Assembly: GCA_040882645.1 (NCBI GenBank)
Contig: JBBEAX010000068.1
Location: 3,230 to 67,229 of the forward strand
Source of the DNA: Acidimicrobiia bacterium
GTDB taxonomy: Bacteria > Actinomycetota > Acidimicrobiia > Spongiisociales > UBA11373
Direction of reading: 5' to 3'
Length of the DNA stretch: 64,000 nt
In this document: one piece after another, positions 2,827 to 63,815 of the stretch
How positions within the stretch are numbered: position 1 is the first letter of the stretch
Layout of the letters: each line of letters starts with the position of its first letter
Translations under genes and position numbers: made by a program
The notes under the pieces: model-generated
Database searches by the model: none
What the model was told of the DNA's origin: nothing
Seen by the model: the letters and a program-made list of their open reading frames with translations, nothing else

Positions 2827-3575
2827 GCGGCCCGCGGGCAGCCGTCATCGTCTTTCCCGGGTCCAACGGGGACCGCGACCTTCTCGAAACGCTTCACACG
2901 GCCGGATTCGACGCCTTTCCCCACCCTTCGGGACGAGCGCTGCCGGAAGACGTGGTCCTCGCCGGACTTCCGGGAGGTTTCTCGTTCGGCGACTACTGGA
3001 GGGCGGGGATGCTCGCCAGCCAGGAACCGGCGGTGCGCAGCCTCGACCACCTCGTCGAGCGGGGCGGACTGGTGATCGGAGTGTGCAATGGCTTCCAGAT
3101 CCTTGTCGAAGCCGGGCTGCTTCCCGGGGCGCTGTCCTACAACGATCCGGCAGGGTTTCGCCATCGATGGGTCACTCTCGAGTGCGCCTTCGACTCCGGC
3201 AGCCCCTGGTTCGAGGCCGTGCCCGCAGGCACCCGGCTGCGGATGCCGATCGCCCACGGCGAGGGCTCCTACTTCCACCCTGGAGGATTCGACGCGGTGG
3301 CCGCGCATGCCCCGCTGCTCTACGAGAACAACCCCAACGGCTCCGTGGGTGGCGTGGCGGCGCTCCTCGACGGTACCGGGCGGGTGTTGGGGATCATGCC
3401 CCACCCCGAGCGTGCCTCGGATCCCGACCTCGGGAGTGCCGATGGGCTCAGGCTGTTCGAGGGCGCCTGCGGCGCCGCCTCCCGCCTCCCGCCTCCCGCC
3501 TCCCGCAAGACCGCGGCCTTCCGTCCTCCGCACGACCAGTCCGGTATCAGGACTGACATCAGGAGCGGATCGTGA
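2823..3575 (+). CDS. purQ: FGAM synthase glutaminase subunit PurQ, with an unusual ~35-aa C-terminal tail
   Basis: Carries the class-I glutamine amidotransferase triad context (GVCNGFQIL, MPHPER). The tail after ..GLRLFEGA is encoded by a GCCTCCC heptad repeat element. The stop overlaps the purL GTG. Confidence 0.9.
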   Translation: MSGPRAAVIVFPGSNGDRDLLETLHTAGFDAFPHPSGRALPEDVVLAGLPGGFSFGDYWRAGMLASQEPAVRSLDHLVERGGLVIGVCNGFQILVEAGLLPGALSYNDPAGFRHRWVTLECAFDSGSPWFEAVPAGTRLRMPIAHGEGSYFHPGGFDAVAAHAPLLYENNPNGSVGGVAALLDGTGRVLGIMPHPERASDPDLGSADGLRLFEGACGAASRLPPPASRKTAAFRPPHDQSGIRTDIRSGS

Positions 3576-5752
3576 CGCTATCGACCGAAAACTCGGCGCG
3601 CGAACTCGGACTGGCGATGGGGCTCACCGGAGTGGAACTCGACCACATCGTGGCCGAGTTGGGACGAGAGCCGAACCGGGTGGAACTGGCGGTGTTCGTC
3701 GGCATGTGGAGCGAGCATTGCTCGTACAAGTCGACGAAGGCATTACTGGCGACCCTTCCCTCCTCGGGGCCGGGCGTCCTGGCAGGCCCGGGAGCCCACG
3801 CCGGCACGGTCGATGTCGGCGACGGGTGGGCGATCGCCTTCAAGATCGAGAGCCACAATCACCCGAGCGCGGTCGAGCCCTACCAGGGAGCGGCAACCGG
3901 GGTAGGTGGAATCCTCCGCGATGTCGTCGCCCAGGGAGCCCGGCCGGTGGCCGTCATGGACGCGCTCTGCTTCGGAGACCCCGCCTCCCCCCGCACCCGA
4001 TGGCTCCAGGACGGGGTCGTCGGCGGCATCGGCGGCTACGGCAACTCGTATGGCGTACCCAATATCGGCGGCCTCACCGTCTACGACACCGGGTATGAAG
4101 GGAACCCCCTCGTCAACGCACTTGCCGCCGGGTTGGTCCGCCACGACGGGATGCGCACCGCAGCCGCCACCGGCCCGGGCAACGCAGTGCTCATCGTCGG
4201 CGCCACCACCGGGCGCGACGGCATCCTCGGCGCGGCGTTTGCTTCAGAGGAGCTCGGCGAGCACCACGAGCACACCGCGCGCCGATCGCACGTCCAGGTG
4301 GGCGACCCGTTCATGGGCAAGAAGCTGATGGAGGCGATGCTCTCGTTCGACGACGGGCTCGTCGCCTGCCAGGACCTCGGAGCGTGTGGTATCGCCTGCG
4401 CCACCGCCGAGATGGCGGCTGCGGGCGGCAGCGGCTTCGACATCGACCTCGATCTGGTGCCGCAGCGAGAGGCCGGCATGGAGCCCTTCGAGGTCCTGCT
4501 GTCCGAGTCGCAGGAGCGCTTCATGCTGGTGGTCGCCGCGGGCCGCGCCGAAGCCGCTCTCGCCCACTTCCGCGACCACGGCGTCCACGCTGCGGTCTGC
4601 GGCACCGTCACCGACTCGGGCCAGATGCGGGTGCGCCACGACGGCACGATCGTCGTCGACGTGCCCGCCGCCCTGGTGGCCGACGGCACTCCGGGCCAGC
4701 AGTGGGAGACAGGCACGCTCCCCGGCCCCCGGCCGTACCCCGACTTTCCGATTCCGGACGACCTCGGCGCGGTGCTCGTCCAACTGATCGCCCAACCAGG
4801 GATCTCTGACCATTCGCGGCTCTACGAGCGCTACGACCAGACCGTGGGGAATCGCACCATCCGCGGGCCGGGCCAGGGCGAGGCGGCGGTGCAGAAGTTG
4901 CCCGGGTCCACGGCCGGTTACGCGATCAGCCTGGTGGGTGGCGGTGAGCGCTGCGCCGTCGACCCCTATCTCGGCATCCAGGCGCTGCTCGGCGAGGCCG
5001 TTCGCAACCTCGGCTGCGTCGGAGCACGGGCCGTTGCAGTCTCCGACGGGATCAACGCCGGGTCGCCTTCCGATCCGGTCGAGTTCGCCCGCCTGGCGGC
5101 CTTGATTCGGGGCCTCGGCGACGGTCTCCGCTCACTCGACCTCCCGGTGACCGGTGGCAACTGCTCGCTGTACAACGAGTCGCCCGCGGGTGCGATCCCC
5201 CCCACCCCGATGATCGGTGTCGTCGGCACCGTCGGAGACATCCGCCGCATACCCGCCGTTGCGATGAAAACCGGCGAGATCCTGCTTCTCGCTGGATCAC
5301 CCCCCGGCGAGCAAGGTCATGCCGCCTACGGACGACTGCTCACCGGATCGTCCGGACCCGCCCCCTCGGTCGATCTCGCCGCCGACCGACGCCTCGCCGC
5401 GTTCTTGGTGGGGCAGATCGCCGCCAGGCGGATTCGCGCGGCGAAGGACTCCGGACGCGGAGGCCTTGCCGTCGCCCTCGCCAAACTCTGCATCCGCGGC
5501 GGCGTCGGCGCCGAGGTCCGGGGCGGCGAGTGGGGCAGCCGCCCCGACTGGGCTCTCTTTGGCGAGGGGCCAGGGGCGGCATGGATCGCCACCCGGCCTG
5601 AGGACGCCGGGGCTTTGATCGCCGACGCGGCGCCTGAAGGAGTTCCGGTGCAGCAGGTGGGAGTGGTCGGCGGGAACCGCCTCACGATCGGTGGAATCAT
5701 CGACCTCGCCGTCGGGGATCTGGCGACCGCCTACGCGAAGGAGCCGGCATGA
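3572..5752 (+). CDS. purL: FGAM synthase II large subunit PurL
   Basis: A 726-aa product with ..WSEHCSYKS.., ..ESHNHPS.. and AIR-synthase-like repeat domains. It is coupled to its neighbours by GTGA and ATGA overlaps. Confidence 0.95.
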   Translation: MTLSTENSARELGLAMGLTGVELDHIVAELGREPNRVELAVFVGMWSEHCSYKSTKALLATLPSSGPGVLAGPGAHAGTVDVGDGWAIAFKIESHNHPSAVEPYQGAATGVGGILRDVVAQGARPVAVMDALCFGDPASPRTRWLQDGVVGGIGGYGNSYGVPNIGGLTVYDTGYEGNPLVNALAAGLVRHDGMRTAAATGPGNAVLIVGATTGRDGILGAAFASEELGEHHEHTARRSHVQVGDPFMGKKLMEAMLSFDDGLVACQDLGACGIACATAEMAAAGGSGFDIDLDLVPQREAGMEPFEVLLSESQERFMLVVAAGRAEAALAHFRDHGVHAAVCGTVTDSGQMRVRHDGTIVVDVPAALVADGTPGQQWETGTLPGPRPYPDFPIPDDLGAVLVQLIAQPGISDHSRLYERYDQTVGNRTIRGPGQGEAAVQKLPGSTAGYAISLVGGGERCAVDPYLGIQALLGEAVRNLGCVGARAVAVSDGINAGSPSDPVEFARLAALIRGLGDGLRSLDLPVTGGNCSLYNESPAGAIPPTPMIGVVGTVGDIRRIPAVAMKTGEILLLAGSPPGEQGHAAYGRLLTGSSGPAPSVDLAADRRLAAFLVGQIAARRIRAAKDSGRGGLAVALAKLCIRGGVGAEVRGGEWGSRPDWALFGEGPGAAWIATRPEDAGALIADAAPEGVPVQQVGVVGGNRLTIGGIIDLAVGDLATAYAKEPA

Positions 5753-7119: not shown

Positions 7120-8117
7120 ACCGGCCGCTCTCGTACGAAGCCGCGGGAGTCGGCATCGCCGCGGCCGAAAGGTTCATCGAAGCGATTGGCCCGATGGTCC
7201 GGTCGACCCACACCGAGGCGGTAGTCGCCCACTCCTCCCGGTTCGCCGGGCTGATCCGTCCCGACACCTCGGGCATGACAGATCCCCTGATTGCCGCCAC
7301 TTGCGACGGGGTCGGCACCAAGGTCCTACTGGCGACCGAGCCATCGCACTATGAGGGCCTGGGACGCGATCTGGTGGCGATGAACGTCAACGACCTGCTC
7401 CCCCTCGGTGCCCGGCCCTTGCTGTTCCTCGACTACCTGGCGGCGGGCAGGCTCGACCCGGCTCGCCTCGAAGCCGCGGTACGCGGGATCGCCGCCGCCT
7501 GCCGGGAGGCCCGCTGCGTGTTGCTGGGCGGCGAGACCGCGGAGATGCCCGACGCCCTCCACAACGACACCGTGGAGATGGCCGGATTCTCGGTGGGCGT
7601 GGTCGACGCCACCACCCTGCCCGATCCCGCCACGGTTCGCCCGGGCGACACGGTGGTCGCCTTGCCATCAACCGGACTGCACTCCAACGGGTTCACCCTC
7701 GCCCGCCGTGCCCTGATCGACCGCGGTGGTTTCGACCTCGATGACACCCTGCCCCGGCTCGATCGAACCGTCGGCGACACCTTGCGTACCCCGACCGCCA
7801 TCTACGTCGACCGGGTGCTCGGCACCGCCTTCAAGGCAGCGGCGCACATCACCGGAGGCGGGTTGCTCGGCAGGATCGCGGCGATGCTCCCCCAGGGACT
7901 CGGTGCCAGCATCGACCCCGATGCCTACGAGCGGCCTCCGGTGTTCGATTTGATCGCCGAAGCGGGAGAGATCGCCGCGGCGGAGATGGCGGCGACCTTC
8001 AACATGGGCCTCGGGTTCGTTGCCATCGTCGCGCCCGGCATGGAGCCCACCGACTGGATCCGGGTCGGCGAGGTCGTCGAAGGCGGAGTGACCGACCTCG
8101 GCTATGCCGCCCGCTAG
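7116..8117 (+). CDS. purM: Phosphoribosylformylglycinamidine cyclo-ligase (AIR synthetase)
   Basis: YEAAGVGIAAAE.., ..DGVGTK.., ..HITGGG.. are typical PurM motifs. Confidence 0.95.
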   Translation: MNRPLSYEAAGVGIAAAERFIEAIGPMVRSTHTEAVVAHSSRFAGLIRPDTSGMTDPLIAATCDGVGTKVLLATEPSHYEGLGRDLVAMNVNDLLPLGARPLLFLDYLAAGRLDPARLEAAVRGIAAACREARCVLLGGETAEMPDALHNDTVEMAGFSVGVVDATTLPDPATVRPGDTVVALPSTGLHSNGFTLARRALIDRGGFDLDDTLPRLDRTVGDTLRTPTAIYVDRVLGTAFKAAAHITGGGLLGRIAAMLPQGLGASIDPDAYERPPVFDLIAEAGEIAAAEMAATFNMGLGFVAIVAPGMEPTDWIRVGEVVEGGVTDLGYAAR

Positions 8118-10160: not shown

Positions 10161-10262
10161 CCCGCTACCCGCTACCCGCTGACAGTCGCTGCCTGCTGCC
10201 GTGCCCGTTCGCCGGAAGAGAGACCGCGCCGCTCGTGACCCTTCTTGCGGAGGGCGGAAGGC
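10161..10262. repeat. Intergenic repeat element, copy A (heptads GCTACCC x2-GCTGACAG core + GGCCTTCCGCC-type tail); inverted partner at 12030-12175
   Basis: Bases 10168-10208 are the exact reverse complement of 12112-12152 (41 nt). Flanking sequence remains about 80 percent similar for roughly 100 nt. Confidence 0.9.
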
Positions 10263-12029: not shown

Positions 12030-12175
12030 GGCCTTCCGCCGTCCGCCTTCAGCAAGAAGGCCTCCCGCCTTCCGCAAGATCACGAGCGGCGCGCTCCCCT
12101 CTTCCGGGTCGACGGGCACGGCAGCAGGCAGCGACTGTCAGCGGGTAGCGGGCAGCGATTGCGTAGCGGGTAGCG
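12030..12175. repeat. Intergenic repeat element, copy B (inverted relative to 10161-10262, with an internal duplication of the GGCCTYCCGCC..GCAAGA part)
   Basis: See copy A. Bases 12112-12152 are the reverse complement of 10168-10208. GGGTAGC-type heptads lie at 12143-12175. Confidence 0.9.
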
Positions 12176-12543: not shown

Positions 12544-12720
12544 GGCCTCGCTTTGCTCGGCTGCAATTCGCAATTCGCAATACGCAATTCGCAATTCGCA
12601 ATACGACCGAGGACTCAAATCAGCGAGGCACCTCAGACGGGTCTCGACTCTTGCAGCCGAGCGAAGCGAGGCGCTCTGTCGAATTGCGAATCGCGAATTG
12701 CGGGGCCGAGCGAAGCGAGG
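12544..12720. repeat. Composite heptad-array element between convergent genes
   Basis: CCTCGCTTTGCTCGG lies at 12546-12560. (GCAATTC GCAATTC GCAATAC)x2 lies at 12563-12604. After a spacer comes GCCGAGCGAAGCGAGG at 12656-12671, then CTGTC + GAATTGC GAATCGC GAATTGC at 12676-12701, then GCCGAGCGAAGCGAGG at 12705-12720. The left and right halves are imperfect inverted repeats. Confidence 0.9.
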
Positions 12721-17235: not shown

Positions 17236-17263
17236 AAGCGATAGGCGAAGGGCGAAAGGCGAA
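17236..17263. repeat. Short heptad array (RGGCGAA x3-4) in the carA/sthA divergent intergenic region
   Basis: The sequence GAAGCGAT AGGCGAA GGGCGAA AGGCGAA has a 7-nt period. Confidence 0.6.
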
Positions 17264-17308
17264 ACCCCGTAATGCCCGTCGCTGCCCTCGGCGGATACCC
17301 TGGGGCGG

Positions 17309-29597: not shown

Positions 29598-29665
29598 CGC
29601 GTCTCACCTTCTTCTACACCGATGAAGAAACCACGGCTTGCGTCCGAAAGGCCCGACCCGCTCTT

Positions 29666-29696
29666 TCGAATTGCGTATCGCCAATCGCGAATCGCG
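29666..29696. repeat. Heptad array GAATTGC GTATCGC CAATCGC GAATCGC, ending 2 nt from the M23 peptidase stop codon
   Basis: Has a 7-nt period. The word family matches that at 12681-12701, 51392-51433 and 59532-59559. Confidence 0.85.
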
Positions 29697-43775: not shown

Positions 43776-43814
43776 CCTCGCTTCGCTCGGGCCGCAATTC
43801 GCGATTCGCAATTC
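43776..43814. repeat. Half element: CCTCGCTTCGCTCGG module + GCAATTC GCGATTC GCAATTC heptads, starting 5 nt after the lexA stop
   Basis: The module (43776-43790) is the reverse complement of the GCCGAGCGAAGCGAGG seen at 12656 and 12705. The heptads lie at 43794-43814. Confidence 0.85.
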
Positions 43815-43913
43815 GAAGGAACGGGTCAAGGCGTTGTGGAGGCCGCCCGGGCGATCTGGCGATTGGCGGGCCTGCTCGTAGGGTCAGCTTCCCCCCCTCC
43901 CCCCTTCGGGGTA

Positions 43914-51260: not shown

Positions 51261-51433
51261 GCGATAAGCAATACGCGATAAGCGATACGAAGGAAGCGGT
51301 CTGAGCCACCGCGGGCGGTATGGACGCCTCTGTCGTATCGCGTATCCAGAGACGGGTGAAGGCACCGCGAACAGGTCTGACGCCCTCTGTCGTCTTGCGT
51401 ATCGCGTATCGCGTATCGCGTATTGCGAATTGC
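51261..51433. repeat. Composite heptad-array element between the thpR stop and the recA SOS box
   Basis: GCGATAA GCAATAC GCGATAA GCGATAC lies at 51261-51288. A mini copy, CTGTC GTATCGC GTATCC, lies at 51330-51347. CTGTC GTCTTGC (GTATCGC)x3 GTATTGC GAATTGC lies at 51387-51433. The outer arrays are inverted relative to each other. Confidence 0.9.
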
Positions 51434-55041: not shown

Positions 55042-55068
55042 GAGGGCAAACCGTAGCGACGGCGGAAA

Positions 55069-55117
55069 GAGCCAAGAGCCAAGAGTCAAGAATCAAGAGG
55101 TAAGCGGTAAGAGGCAA
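55069..55117. repeat. Seven purine-rich heptads (GAGCCAA GAGCCAA GAGTCAA GAATCAA GAGGTAA GCGGTAA GAGGCAA) in a divergent promoter region
   Basis: A strict 7-nt period read directly from the sequence. No inverted partner lies nearby. Confidence 0.85.
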
Positions 55118-55180
55118 GCGCCCGCACTGAGGCGCGTGCGCTGCTCTGGGTTGTTGCCCGGCGGGGCGGCCTCGGCGATC

Positions 55181-57392: not shown

Positions 57393-58366
57393 CAGCCCGC
57401 CAATGTCCTGCGGGCGGCGGCAGCGATGCGATCGGGATTCGGGATGTAATGGTGCTCGGTTCGCCTGAGCGGCACGACGGTGTCCCACCCGGTGACACGT
57501 TCGACAGGGGCCAGCAGCGAATAGAGGGCCTGCTCCTGCACCACGGCGGCGATCTCCGAAGCGAGGGAGGCGGTCCGATGCCCCTCGACTACCGCCACCA
57601 CCCGGCCGGTCTTGCGAGCCGACCCCACCACTGTCTGATGGTCCATCGGCGACAGCGTACGAAGGTCGATCAGTTCCACCGACACCCCATCGGCTTCGAG
57701 CGCGTCGGCGGCGCGCCCTGCGTCTCGCAGCATCGCCCCGTACGACACCAGGGTCACGTCCGACCCTTCCCGCACCACCTTTGCCTCGCCGATGGGAACC
57801 GTGTAGTGGCCCTCGGGCACCTCCTCCTTGATGGCCCGGTAGACCCGGATGGGTTCGAGGAACACCACAGGGTCGGAGTCAATGATCGCGGCCAGCAGCA
57901 AACCCTTTGCGTCCGCAGGCGTAGCCGGGGCGACCACTTTGATCCCCGGGGTGTGGACGAAGATCGCCTCCGACGACTCGCTGTGATGTTCGGCGGCGCC
58001 GATACCGCCACCGAACGGAATTCGGATGACCAGCGGGGCGGTAAAGCGGTGATTCGAGCGGTTCCGGATTCGGCCGACATGACTGACGATCTGATCGAAC
58101 GCTGGGTAGGCGAAGCCGAGGAATTGAATCTCGGCGACGGGTCGGAGACCGCCAATCGCCATCCCGAAGGCTGCCCCCACGATTCCGGATTCCGCCACCG
58201 GTGTGTCGATCACCCTCGGGCCGTATCTCTCGTGGAGACCGTCGGTGACGCGAAACACCCCTCCGGTGACCCCGATGTCCTCGCCGAGAAGGACGACCCG
58301 GTCGTCGGCGGAGAGGGCGACATCCAGCGCGTCGTTGAGCGCTTGGGCCATGTTCATCTCTGTCAT
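57392..58366 (-). CDS. 2-oxoacid dehydrogenase E1 component beta subunit
   Basis: ..MAQALNDAL......VLLGEDIG..GGVFR.T.GL... and ..DTP..E..IVG... Confidence 0.92.
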   Translation of the reverse strand: MTEMNMAQALNDALDVALSADDRVVLLGEDIGVTGGVFRVTDGLHERYGPRVIDTPVAESGIVGAAFGMAIGGLRPVAEIQFLGFAYPAFDQIVSHVGRIRNRSNHRFTAPLVIRIPFGGGIGAAEHHSESSEAIFVHTPGIKVVAPATPADAKGLLLAAIIDSDPVVFLEPIRVYRAIKEEVPEGHYTVPIGEAKVVREGSDVTLVSYGAMLRDAGRAADALEADGVSVELIDLRTLSPMDHQTVVGSARKTGRVVAVVEGHRTASLASEIAAVVQEQALYSLLAPVERVTGWDTVVPLRRTEHHYIPNPDRIAAAARRTLAG

Positions 58367-59397
58367 GAGGCGTCACCCTGCTGCAGACGCCGCTGGGCTT
58401 CGAGCGCGCCGGTCGGCTTGGCGTACATCCGATCGAACATCCCCTCGGCGGCAAAGGGTTCGAGGGCCTCGGCCCGGGAGACCGCGGCCTCGATCTCAGC
58501 CGATGCCGCCTCCTCGGTCTCCCGCTCCCACGCCTCATCCCACGCGCCAGCCGAGCGAAGATGAGCCCTGAGCCGCTCGATCGGATCCTTCTTCCGCCAA
58601 TCGGCAATGTCGTCGTCGGAGCGGTAACGCCCGGCGTCGTCGCTGGTGGTGTGCGGGCCGATCCGGTAGGTGAGCGCCTCGACCAGCGTGGGCCCCTCCC
58701 CCGCCCGCGCCCGCCGCACCGCCTTGCGGGTCGCGGTCAAGACAGCGAACAAATCGTTGCCGTCGACCAGCACCCCCGGCATCCCGTAGGCGTCCGCCTT
58801 CTGGGCGATCGTCTCCGACGCGGTCTGGCCGGCCCGGCTCATCGAGATCGCCCACCCGTTGTTCTGACAGAGAAATACCGTCGGAGTGGTGTAGACGGCC
58901 GCAAAGTTCATCGCCTCGTGGAAGTCGCCCTCCGAGGTCGCCCCATCGCCGAAGAGGGTGAGGGCGATACGGTCGGTGCCCTTCATCCGTTCCGCCCAGG
59001 CCAGGCCGACGGCGTGGATCATGTGGCCGCCCACCGTGATCGAAGGGGGCAGCACGTTCACCCCAACCGGAGGGGCTCCCCCGCGTTCATCACCCATGCG
59101 GCCCAGCAAGAGGGCATCCCAGGGGTATCCCTGCATCCACATCGCCGCCGCGTCCCGGTACGTGCCCACCAGCCAGTCGTCGGGGCGCAACGCGGCAACC
59201 GCTCCAATCTGTGCAGCCTCCTGCCCCTCGAACTGGGCGTAAGTGGCAAACCGCCCCTGGCGTTGGAGCGCCGAACCCTTCCGGTCGTACACCCGGGCAG
59301 TGACCATCGCCGCGAACAGCCGACGAGCCTCGTTGAGATCGACCGGCGATTCGCCGATCAACGACCCGTCGACATCGAGGATGCGAAGCATGTCCAT
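58363..59397 (-). CDS. 2-oxoacid dehydrogenase E1 component alpha subunit (TPP-dependent)
   Basis: The start is MDMLRILDVDG.. (ATG 59395-59397), and the TPP motif is ..LTLFGDGATSEGDFHEA.N.A... The ORF-track N-terminal extension is a translation of the repeat element. Confidence 0.92.
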   Translation of the reverse strand: MDMLRILDVDGSLIGESPVDLNEARRLFAAMVTARVYDRKGSALQRQGRFATYAQFEGQEAAQIGAVAALRPDDWLVGTYRDAAAMWMQGYPWDALLLGRMGDERGGAPPVGVNVLPPSITVGGHMIHAVGLAWAERMKGTDRIALTLFGDGATSEGDFHEAMNFAAVYTTPTVFLCQNNGWAISMSRAGQTASETIAQKADAYGMPGVLVDGNDLFAVLTATRKAVRRARAGEGPTLVEALTYRIGPHTTSDDAGRYRSDDDIADWRKKDPIERLRAHLRSAGAWDEAWERETEEAASAEIEAAVSRAEALEPFAAEGMFDRMYAKPTGALEAQRRLQQGDAS

Positions 59398-59411
59398 CGG
59401 CCGGAGATAGT

Positions 59412-59614
59412 AGGTCGGCCGGCTACGCCGGCCTCCCGCGATGGTCGGGCGGCTGCGCCGCCCTCCTGCGATACGCGATACGCGATACGCGATACGACAG
59501 ACGCGTTGATGCCGTGAGATCGCCTTCTGTCGTATCGCGTATCGCGTATCGCGTATTGCGGCCGAGCGGAGCGAGGCGGGCCGAGCGGAGCGAGGCGGGC
59601 CGAGCGGAGCGAGG
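59412..59614. repeat. Composite repeat: 30-nt direct repeat x2, long heptad hairpin, and 19-nt module x3
   Basis: The 30-nt direct repeats lie at 59412-59441 and 59442-59471. (GCGATAC)x4 GACAG lies at 59468-59500, followed by a 26-nt loop. CTGTC (GTATCGC)x3 GTATTGC lies at 59527-59559. GCCGAGCGGAGCGAGGCGG x3 lies at 59561-59614 and ends 3 nt before a stop codon. Confidence 0.92.
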
Positions 59615-59617
59615 CCC

Positions 59618-61135
59618 CTATACCTCAATCCACTGCAACGCCGCGACTAGGGCCAAGGCTTCTTCGTAATCGCCGCAGCGGACTTCGACGGCGTCGGTGG
59701 GAGCGGTGGGAACCACCAGTCGGGCCGGTCCACCCTGGCTGTAGTCGAGGACTCTCAGCGGTGGGAGCACCGGGCGCCCCACCGAGATCACGCCGACCCG
59801 GTCCGATTGGCCGCCAACTGCGCGATACGAGCCAAGCAGTGAGCAGGTCCCCCCCGTCGGGGTCGAGACGTCGAACCCGTGGACCTCGGCGAGCACGGTC
59901 CCTGCGGCGTCCGTGGTCTGCACCAATCCGATGGCGCGAGCGAAGTGGTAACCGTCGGGCAGTTCGATGTCGGTGAGGCCGATCGGCAACCGGCGGGGGG
60001 CGATCACGCCGTCAGGTGCGAATTCGAGGCGGGACACCTGGCCCGAGAACCAGTAGAGGGTGTCGGCGGTGGCCAGCATCGTGCCATCGATGCCGATCGG
60101 CGGCGAGAACGGGATCCACCCTGCTCCTGCCGCCTCGTAGATGGCCACCCCTACGCAAGTGCGCACCAGCGGCCTGCCGCCCACCGACAGCACCTCGAGG
60201 TCACAGGCCGAGGCGCGCAGCGGCACCGACTCCACGAATGACCACAACATCGAATCGGGGGCATCGAGCACTGCCGCCTCGAGGCGCTGGTTCACCAGGA
60301 ACGCGCCGAGGTCGGTAGCGGCGATGTCCTGACCATCGGCGGCGATCGGGGTGCCGCCGAGGTCGAAGCGCCACGAGTCGGAATAGGCCTCCCAGCCGAA
60401 CAGGAGGCCGCGGTCCACCGTGAGGTGCCACTCTCCCGTCCAGGCGGATGAAGCCATTCCGGTGATCGGAGGCCCCCCGCCGCTCTCGAGAGAACCCGTG
60501 GCCCCGGACACCAGGTCGTAGTAGAGCCCGAGTTCGGGGGCGACGAGACGGCTCGCCGGCGGAAGCGCGGGGTCGCCAAGCGGAATCTCCTGTCGCGAGA
60601 CCAGGTGATCCGGCCCCAGCAGCTCGAAGAACTCGCCGGTCAGTGGGCGCCAGGTACGCGTCGTCGGGTCGAGGGCGGCCGCGGCAACGCAATTCGGCTC
60701 GGAGGTGCGATCCACCCGGCCCCACAAGACGACCGGAGCCCAGAAGCCTCCAGCGATCGCCACCGGGTCGGCCAGATCGCACATCTCGAAGTGAGGCAGC
60801 GGCATCAACGGCCAGGAGCCGTCAGCCGGGTCGTACACCCAGGCGTCCTGGAAGAACAGCGACGGCGGGAGGTTCTCGTCGCTGTATCCGCCGGTGGTCC
60901 CGCCGAACACGAAGATCTTTCCGGCGACCTCGGTGACGGCGATCGCCTCGCGGCCGGCGACAGGCGCGTCGGGCACGACCTCCCACGCCGCCCCATAGAC
61001 CCCGTCGATGAACGGCGTCGTGGGGCTGGTCGAAGCCGACGAAGGCGCCTGCGGCCGCTGGGTGGTGGGCCACAAGAACACGACCGCAGCCGCAGCCGAA
61101 ACCACCGCGATGGGAAGGAAGCGCCGGGCTTTCAT
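59618..61135 (-). CDS. Membrane-anchored/secreted protein of unknown function, possibly Kelch-like beta-propeller
   Basis: Starts MKARRFLPIAVVSAAAAVVFLW (TM/signal). ..KIFVFGGTTGG......DAWVYDPADGSW.. resembles a Kelch motif. The ORF-track extension reads through the repeats. Confidence 0.65.
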   Translation of the reverse strand: MKARRFLPIAVVSAAAAVVFLWPTTQRPQAPSSASTSPTTPFIDGVYGAAWEVVPDAPVAGREAIAVTEVAGKIFVFGGTTGGYSDENLPPSLFFQDAWVYDPADGSWPLMPLPHFEMCDLADPVAIAGGFWAPVVLWGRVDRTSEPNCVAAAALDPTTRTWRPLTGEFFELLGPDHLVSRQEIPLGDPALPPASRLVAPELGLYYDLVSGATGSLESGGGPPITGMASSAWTGEWHLTVDRGLLFGWEAYSDSWRFDLGGTPIAADGQDIAATDLGAFLVNQRLEAAVLDAPDSMLWSFVESVPLRASACDLEVLSVGGRPLVRTCVGVAIYEAAGAGWIPFSPPIGIDGTMLATADTLYWFSGQVSRLEFAPDGVIAPRRLPIGLTDIELPDGYHFARAIGLVQTTDAAGTVLAEVHGFDVSTPTGGTCSLLGSYRAVGGQSDRVGVISVGRPVLPPLRVLDYSQGGPARLVVPTAPTDAVEVRCGDYEEALALVAALQWIEV

Positions 61136-61176
61136 GCGAGAAGGGTAACGGCGGGGCCCCGATGCGCTGGGCTCCT

Positions 61177-61280
61177 GCAATTCGCAATTCGCAATTCGCA
61201 ATACGCGATACGCGATACGACAGCACGCGACCACGCGCCTTCAACGCGTGCTGTCGTATCGCGTATTGCGCCGAGCGGCG
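61177..61280. repeat. Heptad hairpin element downstream of ftsK
   Basis: (GCAATTC)x3 GCAATAC (GCGATAC)x2 GACAGCACGCG lies at 61177-61229, followed by a 15-nt loop. CGCGTGCTGTC GTATCGC GTATTGC lies at 61245-61269. A partial module GCCGAGCGGCG lies at 61270-61280. Confidence 0.9.
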
Positions 61281-61374
61281 ACCGCTACGCGGGAGAAGAT
61301 CCAATCAGACGCGCCCTGACGCCAGCCGCAGTTCTTGCGCATCGCGGGAGGGCGGCCGGCGGGCGCCCCCCAAG

Positions 61375-61392
61375 CCCCCCCCCCCCCCCCCC
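61375..61392. repeat. Homopolymer C18 (G18 on the coding strand of ftsK) ending 2 nt from the ftsK stop codon
   Basis: Read directly: ..CAAG CCCCCCCCCCCCCCCCCC GA CTA... A further CCCCCC lies 4 nt upstream. Confidence 0.9.
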
Positions 61393-61394
61393 GA

Positions 61395-63650
61395 CTACGC
61401 CCCGACTATCTCGCCGTTCAGTAGCGAGTCGAGTTCGTCTACCGAAACCAGGACGGTGCGGGCTTTGGAGCCCTCGGAGGGTCCGACGATTCCCTGGCGC
61501 TCGAGGATGTCCATCACCCGTCCGGCGCGGGCAAAGCCGATCCGCAGCTTGCGCTGGAGCATCGAGGTGGAGCCAAGCTGGGAGCGGACGATCAGTTCGA
61601 TCGCCTGACGAACGATGTCGCCGTCTTCTCCCTCGAACTCCTCCTCGTCGGCTCTTGCCGCCTCGGCCGCCTCGAAGACCTGCTCGTAACGAGCCTTGCG
61701 CTGGGTGCGTACGTATTCGACCACAGCGTGGATTTCGGTTTCGCTGACCCACGCGCCCTGGATCCGGCGGGCGTGGGGATCGCGGGCGGTGACGACGATC
61801 ATGTCGCCGAGCCCGATCAGCTTCTCGGCGCCCGACAGATCGAGGATCACCCGGCTGTCGGCCTGTGACGCCACCGAGAATGCCATCCGCGAAGGGATGT
61901 TGGCCTTGATCACGCCGGTGATCACGTCGACCGAAGGGCGCTGGGTGGCGATGACGAGATGAATGCCGACAGCCCGGGCCATCTGGGCGATGCGCACGAC
62001 AGCATCCTCCACCGCGCGGCCCGCCACCATCATCAGGTCGTTCAGCTCGTCGACCACCACCACGATGAACGGGAAGCGGTCGTAGTGCTCGCCCTCCAGC
62101 ATGCCGCGATCGAACTTCTCGTGGTAGCCGTCGATGTCACGCACCCCTGCCTCGGCGAGCAGGTCGTAGCGACGATCCATCTCGCGCACCGCCCACTGGA
62201 GGGCGTCAGCCGCCTTCTTGGGGTTGGTGATCACCCGGGTGAGCAGGTGGGGCACGTCGTTGTACTGGCCGAGTTCTACCCGCTTCGGATCCACCAGGAT
62301 CATCCGCACCTCTTCGGGGGTGGTGCGGAACAGCAGCGACGTGACGATGGCATTGATGCACGACGACTTGCCCGCCCCGGTGGCACCGGCAATGAGCACA
62401 TGGGGTAGTTCCCCCAGGTTGATCATCTGAGCGCGGCCGGAGATGTCCATGCCGAGGGCAACATCGAGGGGGTGGACGGCCTCCTTGGCCTCGGGGCTCC
62501 GGAGGATGTCACCGAGGGTCACCAACCGACGCCGCCGGTTGGGTACCTCGACACCGATGGCGCTCTTCCCGGGGATCGGGGCGAGGATGCGGACATCGGG
62601 AGTGGCGAGGGCGTAGGCGATGTCATGCGACAGCCCGGTGACCCGGGCGACCTTGACGCCAGGAGCCAGCTCGATCTCGAAGCGAGTGACCGTGGGGCCG
62701 GGGACGATCCGGGTGAGACGGGCATCAACGCCGTGCTGGATGAAGGTCTGCTCCAATTCGCGCGCCGTCTCGTCAAGCGCCTTCTTCGACTGGCCGGCGC
62801 CACCGCCGAGTTCGAGCAGTTCGAGCGGTGGGAGCGAGTAACCCTGTGTCGCTGCGGAGCGTACGGGCTGGGGGGATGCGGAGACACGCCGCTTGGGTAC
62901 CGACCCCGGAGCGCCCTGGACGAGAATTTCCGGCCCGGGGTCGGATCGGGGTTCGGGGTTGGAAGACACCAGCCGGGGCGGCGATTGGCGCACCTCGACC
63001 ACGGGCGCCCGACGGCGGCTGCCACCCCTGATTCGAGTCCACGCGGCGCGCAGCAGGTCAGCAACGGTGTGACCTGCCTCGCGCACGGTGGTGCGGGTCA
63101 TCAGCAGCACCCCCAGCGCGGTGAACGCCACCAGGATGGTGAACGCACCCCAGAACCCCACGACGCGGCGCAACGGGAACGCGATCAGTGAGCCGATCGC
63201 CCCGCCCCTCTCCTTGACGAGGTCGAGCGAGTCGGCGAGCGAGACCGTGCCGGTCATCAAATGGAACATCGCCAGCGTCGAGAGGAAGGTGATGATGAAC
63301 CCGCTCACCAGTCGGCGGTACTCGTCGCGGCGCCGGGTGATCACCAGAAGTGCGCCGAGGACGATGAGCAGCACGCCGACGACATAGCCCCAGACTCCGA
63401 ACAAGACCTGAAGACCGGTTACCAGGCCTTCACCGAACGGACCGGCGAGGCCAAAGAAGGCGAGGCCTACGAGGACGCCGCCGACGAGCAGGATCACGCC
63501 CCAGACGTCGTCGGCGTTGCTTCCGAACCCGTTGCGGATCCGTTCTCTCAGGGCCGCCAGCGCGGAAGGCCCCGATTTCTGCTTGGTTTTGGTGGTGCCG
63601 GTAGCCCGCGCCCGCCCCGAGCCCCGGCGGGCAGGCTTCCGTGTTGCCAT
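61395..63650 (-). CDS. ftsK: DNA translocase FtsK
   Basis: Has N-terminal TM helices, a Pro/Ser linker, a motor domain (..LIAGATGAGKSSCIN.., ..VVVDELNDLMM..) and a gamma wHTH C-terminus. Confidence 0.95.
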   Translation of the reverse strand: MATRKPARRGSGRARATGTTKTKQKSGPSALAALRERIRNGFGSNADDVWGVILLVGGVLVGLAFFGLAGPFGEGLVTGLQVLFGVWGYVVGVLLIVLGALLVITRRRDEYRRLVSGFIITFLSTLAMFHLMTGTVSLADSLDLVKERGGAIGSLIAFPLRRVVGFWGAFTILVAFTALGVLLMTRTTVREAGHTVADLLRAAWTRIRGGSRRRAPVVEVRQSPPRLVSSNPEPRSDPGPEILVQGAPGSVPKRRVSASPQPVRSAATQGYSLPPLELLELGGGAGQSKKALDETARELEQTFIQHGVDARLTRIVPGPTVTRFEIELAPGVKVARVTGLSHDIAYALATPDVRILAPIPGKSAIGVEVPNRRRRLVTLGDILRSPEAKEAVHPLDVALGMDISGRAQMINLGELPHVLIAGATGAGKSSCINAIVTSLLFRTTPEEVRMILVDPKRVELGQYNDVPHLLTRVITNPKKAADALQWAVREMDRRYDLLAEAGVRDIDGYHEKFDRGMLEGEHYDRFPFIVVVVDELNDLMMVAGRAVEDAVVRIAQMARAVGIHLVIATQRPSVDVITGVIKANIPSRMAFSVASQADSRVILDLSGAEKLIGLGDMIVVTARDPHARRIQGAWVSETEIHAVVEYVRTQRKARYEQVFEAAEAARADEEEFEGEDGDIVRQAIELIVRSQLGSTSMLQRKLRIGFARAGRVMDILERQGIVGPSEGSKARTVLVSVDELDSLLNGEIVGA

Positions 63651-63699
63651 GTGCCAGCCACGTTAGGCCAGGGGCGGGTTAGAACAAACGATTGAATCG

Positions 63700-63815
63700 G
63701 TCGCCAGTCTCCAGTCACCAGTCGCCAGAAAGAAGAAAGAAAGAAAGAAGGGTCTTGAGTTCTGCGGGGCCTGAAACCCGTTCCGGCTGGGGACTGGAGA
63801 CTGGCGACTGGTGAC
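63700..63815. repeat. Inverted heptad arrays (GTCNCCA)x4 ... (TGGNGAC)x4 with a purine-rich AAAGAAG spacer, between rnj and ftsK
   Basis: GTCGCCA GTCTCCA GTCACCA GTCGCCA lies at 63700-63727. AGAAAGAAGAAAGAAAGAAAGAAGGG lies at 63728-63752. TGGGGAC TGGAGAC TGGCGAC TGGTGAC lies at 63788-63815 and ends 2 nt before the upstream gene's stop. Confidence 0.9.

What the first reader, a model, noticed from the sequence alone, without database searches (positions are those of the whole stretch)
3477..63815. Family of 7-nt-period tandem arrays arranged as inverted pairs (array-GACAG-loop-CTGTC-array) scattered through intergenic regions
At least twelve sites carry tandem arrays with a strict heptanucleotide period, and the repeated word differs between sites. 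The words are: GCCTCCC x4 (3477-3504); GCTACCC (10161-10177) with inverted GGGTAGC (12143-12175); and GCAATTC/GCAATAC x6 (12563-12604) with inverted GAATTGC/GAATCGC x3 (12681-12701). Further sites are RGGCGAA (17236-17263), GNATYGC x4 (29666-29696) and GCAATTC/GCGATTC x3 (43794-43814). Then come GCGATAA/GCGATAC x4 (51261-51288) with inverted GTATCGC-type x6 (51392-51433), and GAGCCAA-type x7 (55069-55117). The last three are GCGATAC x4 with GTATCGC x4 (59468-59559), GCAATTC/GCGATAC x6 with its inverse (61177-61269), and GTCNCCA x4 with TGGNGAC x4 (63700-63815). Several share the junction pentamer GACAG/CTGTC. Several also share a capping module GCCGAGCGRAGCGAGG, present at 12656, 12705, 59561 (x3) and 61270, and inverted at 12546 and 43776. 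The paired arrays can fold into stems of about 25-33 bp that tolerate register slippage by whole heptads. No annotated feature type explains them. In form they recall the STRR heptamer repeats of filamentous cyanobacteria, and GGNGACT at 63788-63815 is a degenerate version of the CCCCAGT/ACTGGGG word. The host here is a high-GC actinobacterial-type genome. They could be REP/BIME-like terminators or mRNA stabilisers, MITE-like mobile units, or protein-binding arrays.
Basis: partly seen in the sequence, partly recalled or inferred. Interest (0 to 1): 0.75.

Follow-up and report, generated by a model that had tools for sequence, protein, structure and literature searches.

The report
Heptad-repeat hairpin elements between genes
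The spaces between genes of this Acidimicrobiia-type actinobacterium hold fast-changing hairpin elements built from 7-base tandem repeats, and across many phyla the same repeat architecture encloses a small four-helix-bundle gene known from ribosomal-RNA intervening sequences, which offers a testable origin for the long-unexplained bacterial heptamer repeats.

Summary
Tandem Repeats Finder confirms every listed array. Period 7 is the only enriched period. 17 of 21 period-7 rows lie in the 9% of the window that is intergenic (p=1e-14). Array density is 40-100 times that of control loci.

Five sites (A-E) are full foldback elements: GC-rich cap, heptads, GACAG, loop, CTGTC, mirrored heptads, cap. 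They fold with z of -5 to -7 on both strands. The other sites are half copies. One inverted pair, 1.9 kb apart, brackets purD-purE.

Copies share junction and loop homology, so this is a dispersed family. Relatives show unit-number polymorphism, word switching, gain and loss.

The kind is known: cyanobacterial STRRs and Xanthomonas GGGAATC arrays, including inverted pairs. Its mechanism is not.

The new lead is a gene association. In close relatives, and in about 65 loci from many phyla, inverted 7-8-nt arrays immediately flank a PF05635/TIGR02436 gene, the 23S rRNA intervening-sequence protein, which is Avd-like. Flanks are reverse-complementary in 30 of 35 loci against 7 of 296 controls. One example is a genuine rRNA intervening sequence. 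The window's hairpins look like gene-less versions of these cassettes.

A wobble test gives no sign of RNA-level selection, and there are no T-tract terminators. Function remains inferred.

The parts
12546..12720 (.). Element A, a full foldback between the convergent glyoxalase-like gene and carB. Modules: inverted cap 12546-12561; (GCAATWC)x6 12563-12604; loop 12605-12675 holding an internal cap at 12656-12671; CTGTC 12676-12680; (GAATYGC)x3 12681-12701; cap 12705-12720.
   Evidence: Sequence; TRF; cap search; fold MFE -96/-100 kcal/mol, z=-6.9/-6.5. The ortholog in L379 has the same layout with other right-arm words.
59413..59615 (.). Element B, between the Kelch-like gene and pdhA (both on the - strand). 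Modules: 30-nt GC-rich module x2 59413-59472; (GCGATAC)x4 59468-59495; GACAG 59496-59500; loop 59501-59526; CTGTC 59527-59531; (GTATCGC)x3 plus GTATTGC 59532-59559; 19-nt cap x3 59560-59615.
   Evidence: fold z=-7.2/-7.1. Orthologs in L315, L317 and L006 differ in words, unit number and cap number.
61177..61279 (.). Element C, between ftsK and the Kelch-like gene. Modules: (GCAATTC)x3, GCAATAC, (GCGATAC)x2 at 61177-61218; GACAG 61219-61223; inner stem and loop 61224-61250; CTGTC 61251-61255; GTATCGC GTATTGC 61256-61269; partial cap 61270-61279.
   Evidence: fold z=-7.4/-6.4. Its loop is homologous to the loop of B in inverted orientation (pair I2). Present in L314, L316 and L317; absent in L006.
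51261..51433 (.). Element D, between recA and the LigT-like gene. Modules: left array GCGATAA/GCAATAC x4 51261-51288; then two direct copies of the unit [about 40 nt + CTGTC + array']. CTGTC 51330-51334 precedes GTATCGC GTATC 51335-51346. CTGTC 51387-51391 precedes six units at 51392-51433.
   Evidence: fold z=-5.3/-6.9; junction families D4 and D5.
63700..63816 (.). Element E, between RNase J and ftsK. Modules: (GTCNCCA)x4 63700-63727; loop 63728-63786 with an AGAA-rich run; (CTGGNGA)x4 63787-63816, of which the first unit contains GGGGACT.
   Evidence: fold z=-7.4/-7.2. Orthologs in L314 and L315 use GCCNCCA/CTGGNGG and differ from each other by 2 units.
10161..10262 (+). Half element H, between purH and purD. 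Modules: (CCCGCTA)x2.9 10161-10180; GACAG 10181-10185; about 63 nt; (GGAGGGC GGAAGGC) 10249-10262. It is an inverted copy of I.
   Evidence: Alignment with I; 46 nt 98% complementary (pair I3); the enclosed genes are purD and purE.
12031..12175 (-). Half element I, between purE and the glyoxalase-like gene. Modules: (GCCKTCC)x3 plus GCAAGAAG 12031-12059; (GCCTCCC GCCTTCC) plus GCAAGA 12060-12079; about 55 nt; CTGTC 12135-12139; AGCGGGT-type units 12140-12175.
43776..43815 (.). Solo site F, immediately after the lexA stop codon: inverted cap 43776-43791, then GCAATTC GCGATTC GCAATTC 43793-43815.
   Evidence: no local fold (z near 0). Its junction resembles that of G in inverted orientation (pair I15).
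29649..29696 (.). Solo site G, immediately 3' of the M23 peptidase gene: conserved junction AGGCCCGACCCGCTCTTTC, then GAATTGC GTATCGC CAATCGC GAATCGC.
   Evidence: family D5. The ortholog in L074 is a full capped hairpin.
17238..17264 (.). Solo array J, (GGCGAAR) x3.9, in the divergent carA/lpdA region.
   Evidence: Absent from the otherwise conserved ortholog region of L380.
55062..55122 (.). Solo array K, AAGAGCC-type, about 8 units, in a divergent intergenic region.
   Evidence: The L317 ortholog has only a short CTTGACT/CTTGATT remnant.
3475..3506 (+). (GCCTCCC)x4.6 inside the 3' tail of the purQ ORF, followed by GCAAGA. It uses the same word family and junction as I, and as the arrays of the relatives.
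   Evidence: gene call and Pfam. Conserved in L379 and L380 as GCCTCCA.

Best explanation
What it is. These sites are copies and half copies of a lineage-specific family of foldback repeat elements of the STRR / heptameric-repeat kind. A full copy reads: GC-rich clamp ('cap'), 2-6 tandem heptads (GCRATWC, GYCNCCA, CCCGCTA, GCCTCCN and others), a short conserved junction (GACAG / ...CTCTGTC), a variable loop, and then the mirror image.

Shown directly:
- They occupy intergenic DNA, often starting at the stop codon.
- Their modules expand and contract by slippage.
- Copies are exchanged, replaced, gained and lost between related genomes.

Best-supported placement (inferred). They are the gene-less counterparts of a widespread cassette. 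In that cassette the same kind of inverted 7-8-nt arrays directly enclose one small gene, the PF05635/TIGR02436 four-helix-bundle protein (IVP/S23p, Avd-like). The ORF-bearing intervening sequences of 23S rRNA belong to this class. The relation resembles that of a MITE to its parent element.

How it works (inferred):
- The arrays are the terminal repeats of the unit, and they travel with the gene. The rRNA intervening sequence and the cmr2-cmr3 insertion both show this.
- In transcripts, full copies can form hairpins of 30-45 bp. By analogy with intervening sequences, these would be cut by RNase III or would impede exonucleases. An insertion between cistrons is therefore tolerated.
- The inverted symmetry is more likely kept at the DNA or protein-recognition level than by selection for RNA pairing.

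The agent of spread is unknown.
For: A real, non-random family:
- Period-7 specificity and intergenic bias.
- Cap motif: 7 matches against 0.01 expected.
- Shared junction families D4 and D5, and B/C loop homology.
- Foldback z=-5 to -7.

Dynamics:
- L314 and L315 encode an identical Kelch protein yet differ by 2 heptads in element E.
- The E word changed from GTCNCCA to GCCNCCA in both arms.
- The cap is present x3 in the window and x1 in the relative.
- Element C and element E are absent in SMAG_U16039.
- Site G is half an element in the window and a full one in L074.
- Site H holds a different element type in L379.

Link to the PF05635 (IVP) gene:
- In relatives L314 and L317 the gene sits inside an inverted array pair. 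Gene-less hairpins of the same contig share its word, its outer edge and its inner junction (CCAGAC...CTTCCTGG). In L317 they also share the shift to period 6.
- An HMM search of all loci held found 5 IVP genes in the 113 GCGATAC-array loci and 0 in 200 control loci (p about 0.006).
- Starting instead from the protein, 38 genome loci and 16 metagenome loci from many phyla show arrays at both gene ends.
- Array coverage is 13-27% within 100 nt of the gene ends and about 0 beyond 300 nt.
- Flanks are reverse-complementary at z>4 in 30 of 35 loci, against 7 of 296 control pairs.
- Strong periodicity occurs in 34 of 116 flanks (28 of period 7, 6 of period 8) and in 0 of 400 control segments.
- Cultured organisms show the same layout: Nostoc punctiforme, Anabaena variabilis, Picosynechococcus PCC 7003 (cassette between cmr2 and cmr3, empty in PCC 7002) and a genuine Azospirillum 23S rRNA intervening sequence with heptad stems.
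- Xanthomonas XCC0516 (PDB 2GSC; E=3e-20 to the L314 IVP) carries a GGGAATC array at its start codon in published tables.
- Family assignment is confirmed against Pfam and NCBIfam.

Literature: intervening-sequence stems are cut by RNase III (PMC4990558).
Against: - The window holds no PF05635 gene. None of its 56 genes is a transposase, a reverse transcriptase or a RAYT (HMM search).
- No IVP cassette with GCRATWC arrays was found within Acidimicrobiia. In this lineage only the CCNCCAG type was seen with the gene. The link for elements A-D therefore rests on Anaerolineae cassettes that use the same words.
- Arrays far outnumber IVP genes, so the gene could instead home into pre-existing hairpins.
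- PF05635 has no known catalytic or mobility function.
- No target-site duplication was seen at the PCC 7003 / PCC 7002 junction.
- RNA-level function is unsupported. G.U versus A.C mismatches on the sense strand number 99 against 96. Sense strands of the window hairpins are not the more stable ones. Arms are non-complementary in some relatives. No T-tract terminators are present.
- The absence of a prior description was checked only by keyword in the held library.
Confidence: 0.55

Rival explanations
1. Plain simple-sequence repeats. Heptanucleotide arrays arise independently at each site by polymerase slippage (the Mrazek 2007 idea). Inverted pairs are accidental palindromic duplications. 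There is no element identity and no link to any gene.
For: - Unit-number polymorphism between near-identical strains.
- Other modules also duplicate in tandem: 19-nt cap x3, 30-nt x2, and a 57-nt unit in D.
- Many different words are used.
- The literature reports heptamers as the commonest long simple-sequence repeat in many prokaryotes.
Against: - Copies share non-repetitive junctions and loops.
- The same composite layout recurs with caps.
- Both arms changed together in E.
- Periods 6 and 8 occur in other lineages, so 7 is not a polymerase constant.
- Arrays are positioned specifically around one gene family.
Confidence: 0.13
2. Host-selected RNA hairpins. The paired arrays are retained because they act in mRNA as factor-independent terminators, 3' stabilisers or RNase III sites that tune operon expression, independently of any mobile cassette.
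For: - Elements begin at or near stop codons.
- They persist at the same three gaps (E, C and B) in relatives whose Kelch-like proteins are 59-90% identical to the window's, despite sequence turnover.
- Strong folds.
- STRR hairpins between hupS and hupL have been proposed to stabilise transcripts.
- Intervening-sequence stems are RNase III substrates.
Against: - No T-tract follows any stem.
- Six of eleven intergenic sites cannot fold locally.
- Some sites lie in divergent promoter regions.
- There is no sense-strand advantage and no wobble asymmetry.
- Arms are non-complementary in L315 element B and L006 element B.
Confidence: 0.15
3. DNA-level protein-binding arrays without mobility. Each heptad is a site for a DNA-binding protein, either the four-helix-bundle pentamer itself or a nucleoid or regulatory protein. 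The inverted arrangement reflects oriented binding on either side of a unit.
For: - Five to six of seven positions are conserved, while the N positions vary freely and do not covary between arms.
- Symmetry is strand-neutral.
- Three heptads equal two helical turns, and a 21-nt super-period is seen at 12563-12605.
- Avd-family proteins bind nucleic acids.
Against: - Many unrelated words coexist in one genome.
- No binding data exist.
- This reading does not explain gain, loss and replacement between relatives, or the cassette's arrival in rRNA and in a cas operon.
Confidence: 0.1
4. REP/BIME-type elements (REPINs) mobilised by a RAYT (IS200/IS605-like TnpA).
For: They are intergenic, palindromic, sit directly after stop codons, and occur as singlets and inverted doublets.
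Against: - There is no 20-40-nt conserved palindrome with a GTAG-type head.
- The repeated unit is a 7-nt tandem array with variable words.
- No RAYT or Y1 transposase occurs in 64 kb plus about 100 kb of relatives.
Confidence: 0.04
5. G-quadruplex-forming heptamers, as proposed for Xanthomonas GGGAATC and Nostoc GGGGAYT.
For: Element E's right arm (GGNGACT) resembles the Nostoc word.
Against: The dominant words (GCGATAC, GCAATTC, CCCGCTA) have no G-tracts. Only one unit in the window has four consecutive G.
Confidence: 0.01

Closest known systems
STRR sequences of heterocystous cyanobacteria, and heptanucleotide long simple-sequence repeats in general (Mazel 1990; Mrazek 2007; STRR hairpins between hupS and hupL)
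   Same: - Tandem 7-nt units of a few to several copies.
- Many dispersed intergenic loci and several word families per genome.
- Able to form hairpins when inverted copies are adjacent.
- Copy number varies.
- One unit here equals GGGGACT.
   Different: - The host is an actinobacterium of the Acidimicrobiia.
- The dominant words (GCRATWC, GYCNCCA, CCCGCTA, GCCTCCN) are different.
- The layout is composite, with a GC-rich cap and a conserved GACAG/CTGTC junction.
Xanthomonas GGGAATC heptamer repeats (Rehm et al. 2015, PMC4692102)
   Same: - Heptamers over-represented in non-coding DNA.
- 70-75 convergent inverted pairs per genome.
- Repeat type is preserved but length varies between species.
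- GCGAATC here differs from GGGAATC by one base.
   Different: No G-tracts are present here, so the G-quadruplex reading does not apply. The published work did not connect the repeats to XCC0516, the PF05635 gene, although its table places repeat #15 at that gene's start.
23S rRNA intervening sequences carrying the S23p/IVP ORF (Leptospira, Coxiella; PMC4990558)
   Same: - Terminal inverted repeats form a long stem around a loop.
- ORF-bearing and ORF-less versions both exist.
- Distribution is sporadic.
- In the Azospirillum example fetched here, the stem is itself made of heptads that include GACAGAG/CTCTGTC.
   Different: - The window's elements lie between protein-coding genes, not in rRNA helices.
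- They carry no ORF.
- RNase III cutting is untested here.
REP/BIME/REPIN elements and RAYT
   Same: Short intergenic palindromic repeats that follow stop codons, occurring as singlets and inverted doublets.
   Different: There is no conserved REP palindrome and no RAYT was seen. The units are tandem heptads.
MITEs processed in RNA (Neisseria Correia elements; from my own knowledge) and foldback transposons whose long terminal inverted repeats are made of tandem subrepeats (Drosophila FB; from my own knowledge)
   Same: - A non-autonomous hairpin-forming unit beside a gene-bearing version.
- Terminal inverted repeats composed of tandem subrepeats.
- Tolerated inside operons.
   Different: No transposase and no target-site duplication were identified. 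The only associated gene is a 110-125-aa helical protein with no known catalytic activity.

Membership tests
STRR / heptameric long simple-sequence repeats | Head-to-tail repeats of a 7-nt unit, three or more copies | tested here: met
   TRF reports 2.9-5.7 copies at 78-100% match at 16 places.
STRR / heptameric long simple-sequence repeats | Period 7 over-represented relative to neighbouring periods and to other genomes | tested here: met
   7 arrays at period 7 against 0 for periods 5, 6 and 8-12. Density is 10.9 per 100 kb against 0.1-0.3 in controls.
STRR / heptameric long simple-sequence repeats | Predominantly intergenic and dispersed | tested here: met
   17 of 21 rows are intergenic (p=1e-14). 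11 of about 23 gaps of 100 nt or more carry an array.
STRR / heptameric long simple-sequence repeats | Canonical STRR words (CCCCAGT, TTGGTCA, CAACAGT) | tested here: inconclusive
   Only element E approaches STRR1 (GGNGACT, with one exact GGGGACT). All other words differ.
STRR / heptameric long simple-sequence repeats | Unit number varies between close strains | tested here: met
   L314 against L315: 4 versus 2 units. L363 against L314: 11 versus 3 units.
rRNA-type intervening sequence / PF05635 cassette | Terminal inverted repeats forming a stem of 20 bp or more around a loop | tested here: met
   Elements A-E have stems of about 30-45 bp, z=-5 to -7.
rRNA-type intervening sequence / PF05635 cassette | Carries the S23p/IVP (PF05635) ORF in the loop | tested here: not met
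   There is no PF05635 ORF in the window (HMM search; Pfam on all genes). Relatives L314 and L317 do have one inside the same kind of arrays. ORF-less intervening sequences are known.
rRNA-type intervening sequence / PF05635 cassette | Inserted in a 23S or 16S rRNA helix | tested here: not met
   All sites lie between protein-coding genes. No rRNA is present in the window.
rRNA-type intervening sequence / PF05635 cassette | Excised by RNase III | not testable with these tools
   This needs RNA end-mapping. The wobble test gives no support for RNA-level selection.
   True of the window elements and of nearly all of the roughly 65 IVP loci inspected, among them the Azospirillum rRNA intervening sequence.
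REP/BIME/REPIN | Conserved imperfect palindrome of 20-40 nt with a GT(A/G)G head | tested here: not met
   The repeated matter is tandem heptads with variable words. No such palindrome appears among the repeat families.
REP/BIME/REPIN | Cognate RAYT gene in the genome | not testable with these tools
   None is present in the window or in about 100 kb of relatives (Pfam calls). The whole genome is not available.
MITE | Terminal inverted repeats, small size, no coding capacity, multiple dispersed copies | tested here: met
   Elements A-E span about 100-200 nt and share junctions.
MITE | Target-site duplication | tested here: inconclusive
   Empty sites in relatives are too diverged to align. The PCC 7003 / PCC 7002 filled-versus-empty pair shows no clear duplication.
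MITE | Autonomous partner encoding a transposase with the same ends | tested here: not met
   The gene-bearing partner encodes only PF05635, which is not a known transposase.
Intrinsic (Rho-independent) terminator | GC-rich stem followed by a T/U run | tested here: not met
   None of the 5 terminator-like hits in 50900-64000 lies at elements B-E, and the count equals the shuffle expectation.
G-quadruplex heptamer repeats | Four or more G-tracts of 3 or more G | tested here: not met
   The words GCGATAC, GCAATTC and CCCGCTA lack G-tracts.

The most novel reading that the evidence does not exclude
The heptamer (and 6-8-nt) tandem arrays scattered through many bacterial phyla would be the terminal repeats of one unrecognised class of mobile cassette. 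That would cover STRRs, the Xanthomonas GGGAATC repeats, the Chloroflexi, Anaerolineae and Planctomycetes arrays, and the present actinobacterial family. The only gene of this cassette is the Avd-like four-helix-bundle protein (PF05635/TIGR02436). ORF-bearing rRNA intervening sequences are the special case that landed in rRNA. The gene-less hairpins are its MITE-like offspring. The protein recognises the heptads and takes part in their spread.
Probability: 0.3. Interest if true: 0.85.

Novelty: new variant of a known kind. Interest (0 to 1): 0.7.

Why it matters
Heptanucleotide repeats have been recorded since 1990 (STRRs). They were shown in 2007 to be the commonest long simple-sequence repeat in many prokaryotes. 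No mechanism or function is agreed.

The PF05635/TIGR02436 'four helix bundle' proteins are a family annotated across many phyla whose only understood member is the DGR accessory protein Avd. Why some rRNA intervening sequences carry such an ORF has been open since 1993.

The window adds an actinobacterial family with a clear modular anatomy and well-resolved turnover between relatives. Following it led to a simple, checkable regularity: inverted short-period arrays directly flank PF05635 genes across phyla. This ties the two puzzles together.

It also points to experiments in tractable organisms, namely Nostoc, Picosynechococcus PCC 7003 against PCC 7002, and Xanthomonas XCC0516.

It has practical value too. 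It explains stray 'four helix bundle' genes inside cas and other operons. It also flags assembly- and annotation-prone intergenic regions in MAGs.

Tried and rejected
1. Junction scan. I scanned genome contigs with the 14-mer junction ACGCGATACGACAG. The pattern is too short for 596 Gb: hits were random and none was preceded by a second heptad. Those loci were reused as random controls.
2. Exact-protein look-up of the window's carB found no source record. The Kelch-like and PurD protein searches returned nothing above 90-91% identity. The source genome was therefore not found in these collections.
3. Rfam returned only 4 tRNAs at gathering threshold. Nothing appeared at E<=1 in 29150-29720.
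4. Transposon reading of the H/I inverted pair is rejected. The enclosed genes are purD and purE.
5. RAYT, transposase and reverse-transcriptase search by Pfam over all 56 called genes found none.
6. Classical terminators: none at the elements.
7. The G-quadruplex reading is rejected on sequence.
8. RNA-level selection test by wobble asymmetry on 49 cassettes was flat, 99 against 96. Comparing sense and antisense fold energies of the window hairpins showed no sense preference.
9. A first dinucleotide-shuffle script hung. It was replaced by mononucleotide shuffles.
It was replaced by two narrower alignments.
11. No IVP cassette with GCRATWC arrays was found in Acidimicrobiia loci.
12. PADLOC gave no defence-system match for the IVP.
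13. Vioque 1997, on STRRs inside RNase P RNA, is not held.

Full report

Yes. I applied one self-match criterion to periods 4-12. Period 7 gave 7 arrays covering 240 nt, and periods 5, 6 and 8-12 gave none.

The same criterion gives these densities per 100 kb:
- 10.9 arrays in the window;
- 20.8 in three loci of a related MAG;
- 0.29 in 80 carB loci of diverse genomes;
- 0.11 in 120 essentially random loci.

I called genes with a codon-usage model; 91% of the window is coding. 17 of 21 TRF period-7 rows are intergenic (binomial p=1e-14). 11 of about 23 gaps of 100 nt or more hold an array. The cap motif GCCGAGCGRAGCGAGG occurs 7 times against 0.01 expected.

- The 3475 array is inside the purQ ORF tail.
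- The 'cap' at 61270 is partial.
- Only five sites are local inverted pairs.

**2. Anatomy**

The full elements are A (12546-12720), B (59413-59615), C (61177-61279), D (51261-51433) and E (63700-63816). Their layout is: cap, heptads, GACAG, loop, CTGTC, mirrored heptads, cap. They fold into long hairpins with z=-5.3 to -7.4 on both strands.

Sites F, G, J and K are single arrays that do not fold.

H (10161-10262) and I (12031-12175) are inverted copies of one composite module of about 100 nt, with a 46-nt core that is 98% complementary. They bracket purD and purE, which are ordinary purine genes.

Other modules are also tandemly duplicated: the 19-nt cap x3, a 30-nt unit x2, and the unit of about 57 nt in D.

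Non-repetitive parts are shared between copies. The loops of B and C are homologous in inverted orientation. A junction of about 20 nt (…GACSCCYTCTGTCG…) recurs in A, B, D (twice), G and F. This is therefore a dispersed family, not a set of independent microsatellites.

**3. Host and context**

CarB is at best 66% identical to Acidimicrobiia MAGs. The window is syntenic with contig DATHSA010000032 of Acidimicrobiia MAG SMAG_U16039.

All 56 called genes are housekeeping: the pur and pyr operons, carAB, lpdA, lexA, recA with an intein, ftsK, RNase Y, miaA/B and others. None is a transposase, reverse transcriptase, RAYT or PF05635 gene.

**4. Comparison with relatives**

Protein searches with the Kelch-like gene and with purD gave a graded series of syntenic contigs. 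L314, L315 and L379 are about 90% identical at protein level. L316 is 76%, L380 is 71%, L317 is 59% and SMAG_U16039 is 55%.

Elements E, C and B sit in the same three gaps in L314/L315. C and B are kept in L317, where the E gap holds only a left-arm hexamer array. L316 shows C; its E and B gaps lie outside the contig. The sequences turn over, however:
- L314 and L315 encode the identical Kelch protein yet differ by two heptads in E's right arm.
- E's word is GTCNCCA in the window and GCCNCCA in L314, changed in both arms.
- The cap is x3 in the window and x1 in L315.
- B's left arm in L315 is GCAATTC while its right arm is GTATCGC, which are not complementary.
- In SMAG_U16039, element B is kept with other right-arm words, C and E are absent, and G is a full capped hairpin where the window has only half.
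- At the purH-purD gap the window has a CCCGCTA half element, L379 has a complete CCNCCAG/CTGGNGG hairpin, and L380 has a solo (CCTCCAG)x4.
- Element A exists in L379 with TAATCGC/CAATCGC on the right and is absent in L380.

Slippage, word switching, replacement, gain and loss are thus all directly seen.

**5. What is already known**

- Heptanucleotides are the most abundant long simple-sequence repeats in many prokaryotes, and slippage was proposed as the cause (Mrazek 2007, as summarised in PMC4679880).
- Xanthomonas GGGAATC arrays are over-represented in non-coding DNA. They include 70-75 convergent inverted pairs per genome (PMC4692102).
- STRR hairpins between cyanobacterial genes are familiar, and their function is unknown (PMC2670836).
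- Chloroflexus has (GATAGRA)n.
- An exact search for (GCGATAC)x3 found more than 113 contigs of Anaerolineae and other Chloroflexi, Planctomycetota, Atribacterota, Omnitrophota and others.

The kind is therefore known. This family is a new, modular, actinobacterial variant.

**6. The lead that came out of the relatives**

In L314 and L317 a gene of about 125 aa belonging to Pfam PF05635 (23S_rRNA_IVP; NCBIfam TIGR02436, 'four helix bundle protein') lies inside an inverted array pair. In L314 this reads (CCTCCAG)n, gene, (CTGGNGG)n.

Gene-less hairpins on the same contig share its word, outer edge and inner junction (CCAGAC…CTTCCTGG). In L317, gene-bearing and gene-less copies have both shifted to a 6-nt period.

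An iterated HMM over all ORFs of all loci held found 5 more such genes. All were in the 113 GCGATAC-array loci (754 kb) and none was in the 200 control loci (1.59 Mb), giving p about 0.006. In the four whose flanks are both held, the layout is (GTATCGC-type)n, gene, (GCGATAC-type)n. The fifth (L078) shows only a same-orientation GCGATAC array upstream, because the locus ends at the gene.

I then started from the protein instead. This gave 38 genome loci: Anaerolineae, Binatia, Udaeobacter, delta- and gamma-proteobacteria, Planctomycetaceae, Bacteroidota, Balneolaceae, a CPR lineage, Gastranaerophilales and Thermodesulfovibrio. It also gave 16 metagenome loci. Nearly all show the same picture:
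- Array coverage is 13-27% within 100 nt of the gene ends and about 0 beyond 300 nt.
- Upstream flanks match the reverse complement of downstream flanks at z>4 in 30 of 35 loci, against 7 of 296 control pairs.
- Strong periodicity is found in 34 of 116 flanks (28 of period 7, 6 of period 8) and in 0 of 400 control segments.

**7. Cultured organisms**

tblastn against plasmids hit 23 records, 20 of them cyanobacterial: Nostoc 9, Calothrix 3, Trichormus 2 and others, that is, the STRR organisms. The flanks show the following:
- Nostoc punctiforme: (TCAGGAG)x5, gene, CTTCTGA…
- Anabaena variabilis: (TCAGAAT/TCAGGAG)x5, gene, CTCCTGA…
- Picosynechococcus PCC 7003: a cassette with period-8 arrays lies between cas10/cmr2 and cmr3.
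- Azospirillum lipoferum: a genuine helix-45 23S rRNA intervening sequence has a stem made of heptads, (NGANGAC)x4 … (CYGTCNT)x4.

PCC 7002 has only a 12-nt spacer at the cmr2-cmr3 site. This is a filled-versus-empty polymorphism lying exactly between a stop codon and a start codon.

The L314 protein matches PDB 2GSC, XCC0516 of Xanthomonas campestris (E=3e-20). The published Xanthomonas repeat table places GGGAATC repeat #15 at the start of XCC0516 and 6 nt from bccP.

Keyword searches of the held literature found no paper that links this protein family with tandem repeats.

Intervening sequences with the S23p ORF have terminal inverted repeats. RNase III has been shown experimentally to cut them in the stem, and they were long ago suspected to be mobile (PMC4990558).

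**8. How it probably works, and what is not shown**

Shown:
- the family is real;
- its modules slip;
- copies are exchanged, gained and lost;
- inverted short-period arrays are the normal flanks of PF05635 genes, and they travel with the gene into rRNA and into an operon junction.

Inferred:
- the window's gene-less hairpins are derivatives of such cassettes, or are served by them;
- transcribed copies are processed like intervening sequences.

Evidence against RNA pairing as the selected property:
- In 49 cassettes the arm-to-arm columns comprise 1747 Watson-Crick pairs, 99 G.U on the sense strand, 96 A.C on the sense strand (p=0.89) and 339 other mismatches. The large share of other mismatches fits unmatched variable (N) positions of the heptads.
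- The sense strands of the window hairpins are not the more stable ones.
- Some arms are not complementary.
- No stem is followed by a T-run.

The symmetry therefore looks DNA-level or recognition-level, like terminal inverted repeats made of subrepeats, rather than an RNA helix under purifying selection. The agent of spread is unknown, and PF05635 has no known catalytic role. The alternative that the gene homes into pre-existing hairpins is not excluded.

**9. Verdict**

- Observation: confirmed.
- REP/BIME membership, classical terminators and G-quadruplexes do not hold.
- The finding is a new variant of a known but unexplained kind.
- Its main value is the cross-phylum association with the four-helix-bundle gene. 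That association turns two old puzzles into one testable hypothesis.

Noticed in passing
window 29267-29579 (with hairpin 29582-29605); L074 1486-1795: A conserved intergenic segment of about 310 nt (83% identical) is inverted relative to its flanking genes in the related MAG SMAG_U16039. It is followed here by a GC-rich hairpin, GGGACGCCTC-GCAA-GAGGCGTCCC. It has no Rfam match even at E<=1 and no convincing ORF. It may be an unclassified small RNA gene.
   Followed up: partly
window 48720-51110 (- strand); L317 19237-20420: recA is interrupted by an intein with a LAGLIDADG homing-endonuclease domain. The same arrangement is present in the relative whose Kelch-like protein is 59% identical.
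   Followed up: no
window 40290-40422: A 43-nt unit is repeated 3.1 times (95% match) between tRNA-Cys (40213-40284) and tRNA-Gly (40558-40632). Each unit contains a GGGGCCCCAACCCC palindrome.
   Followed up: no
window 61375-61392: A run of 18 C lies just 3' of the ftsK stop codon, next to element C. The L314 ortholog has no such run. It could be a slippage-prone tract or an assembly artefact.
   Followed up: partly
window 43895-43940; L006 about 2390-2430; L317 about 14400-14440: A second dispersed repeat family made of C6/G6 palindromes (…CCCCCCTTCGGGGTACTCCCCCCGGAAGCCGGGGGGAG…) recurs in the window and in two relatives. In L317 it sits next to cap-like GGCCGAGCGCAGCGAGG motifs and (GGCGGAA)n arrays.
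   Followed up: no
window 8104-10155 and 31934-33304: Two gene fusions: purN-purH (Formyl_trans_N + MGS + AICARFT/IMPCHase) and pyrF-pyrE (OMP decarboxylase + phosphoribosyltransferase).
   Followed up: no
window 38690-39556 (- strand): An RTX (HemolysinCabind) repeat protein carries an internal 255-nt tandem duplication (38705-38917 and 38960-39172, 77% identical).
   Followed up: no
window 17099-17225; L380 16698-16820: The region upstream of carA is almost identical in the relative whose PurD is 71% identical, whereas the adjacent heptad array J is absent there. This suggests a conserved pyrimidine-operon leader or regulatory RNA.
   Followed up: no
L362 (Picosynechococcus PCC 7003 plasmid) 357-784; L381 (PCC 7002 pAQ6): A four-helix-bundle gene cassette sits between cas10/cmr2 and cmr3 of a type III-B operon in one strain and is absent in the sister strain. 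This may explain earlier reports of this protein family as 'cas-associated'.
   Followed up: yes
L317 14103-14491: A 389-nt gap holds two direct copies of a composite unit. The unit reads: (GGCGGAA)n array, T-rich stretch, CCTCCCCTGCGAAGCGGGGGAGG hairpin, cap-like GGCCGAGCGCAGCGAGG. The cap motif thus also exists outside the heptad hairpins.
   Followed up: no
window 237-311 and 39789-39863: Two tRNA-Val genes (anticodons CAC and GAC) on opposite strands are 92% complementary over 75 nt. They form the longest inverted repeat in the window.
   Followed up: no
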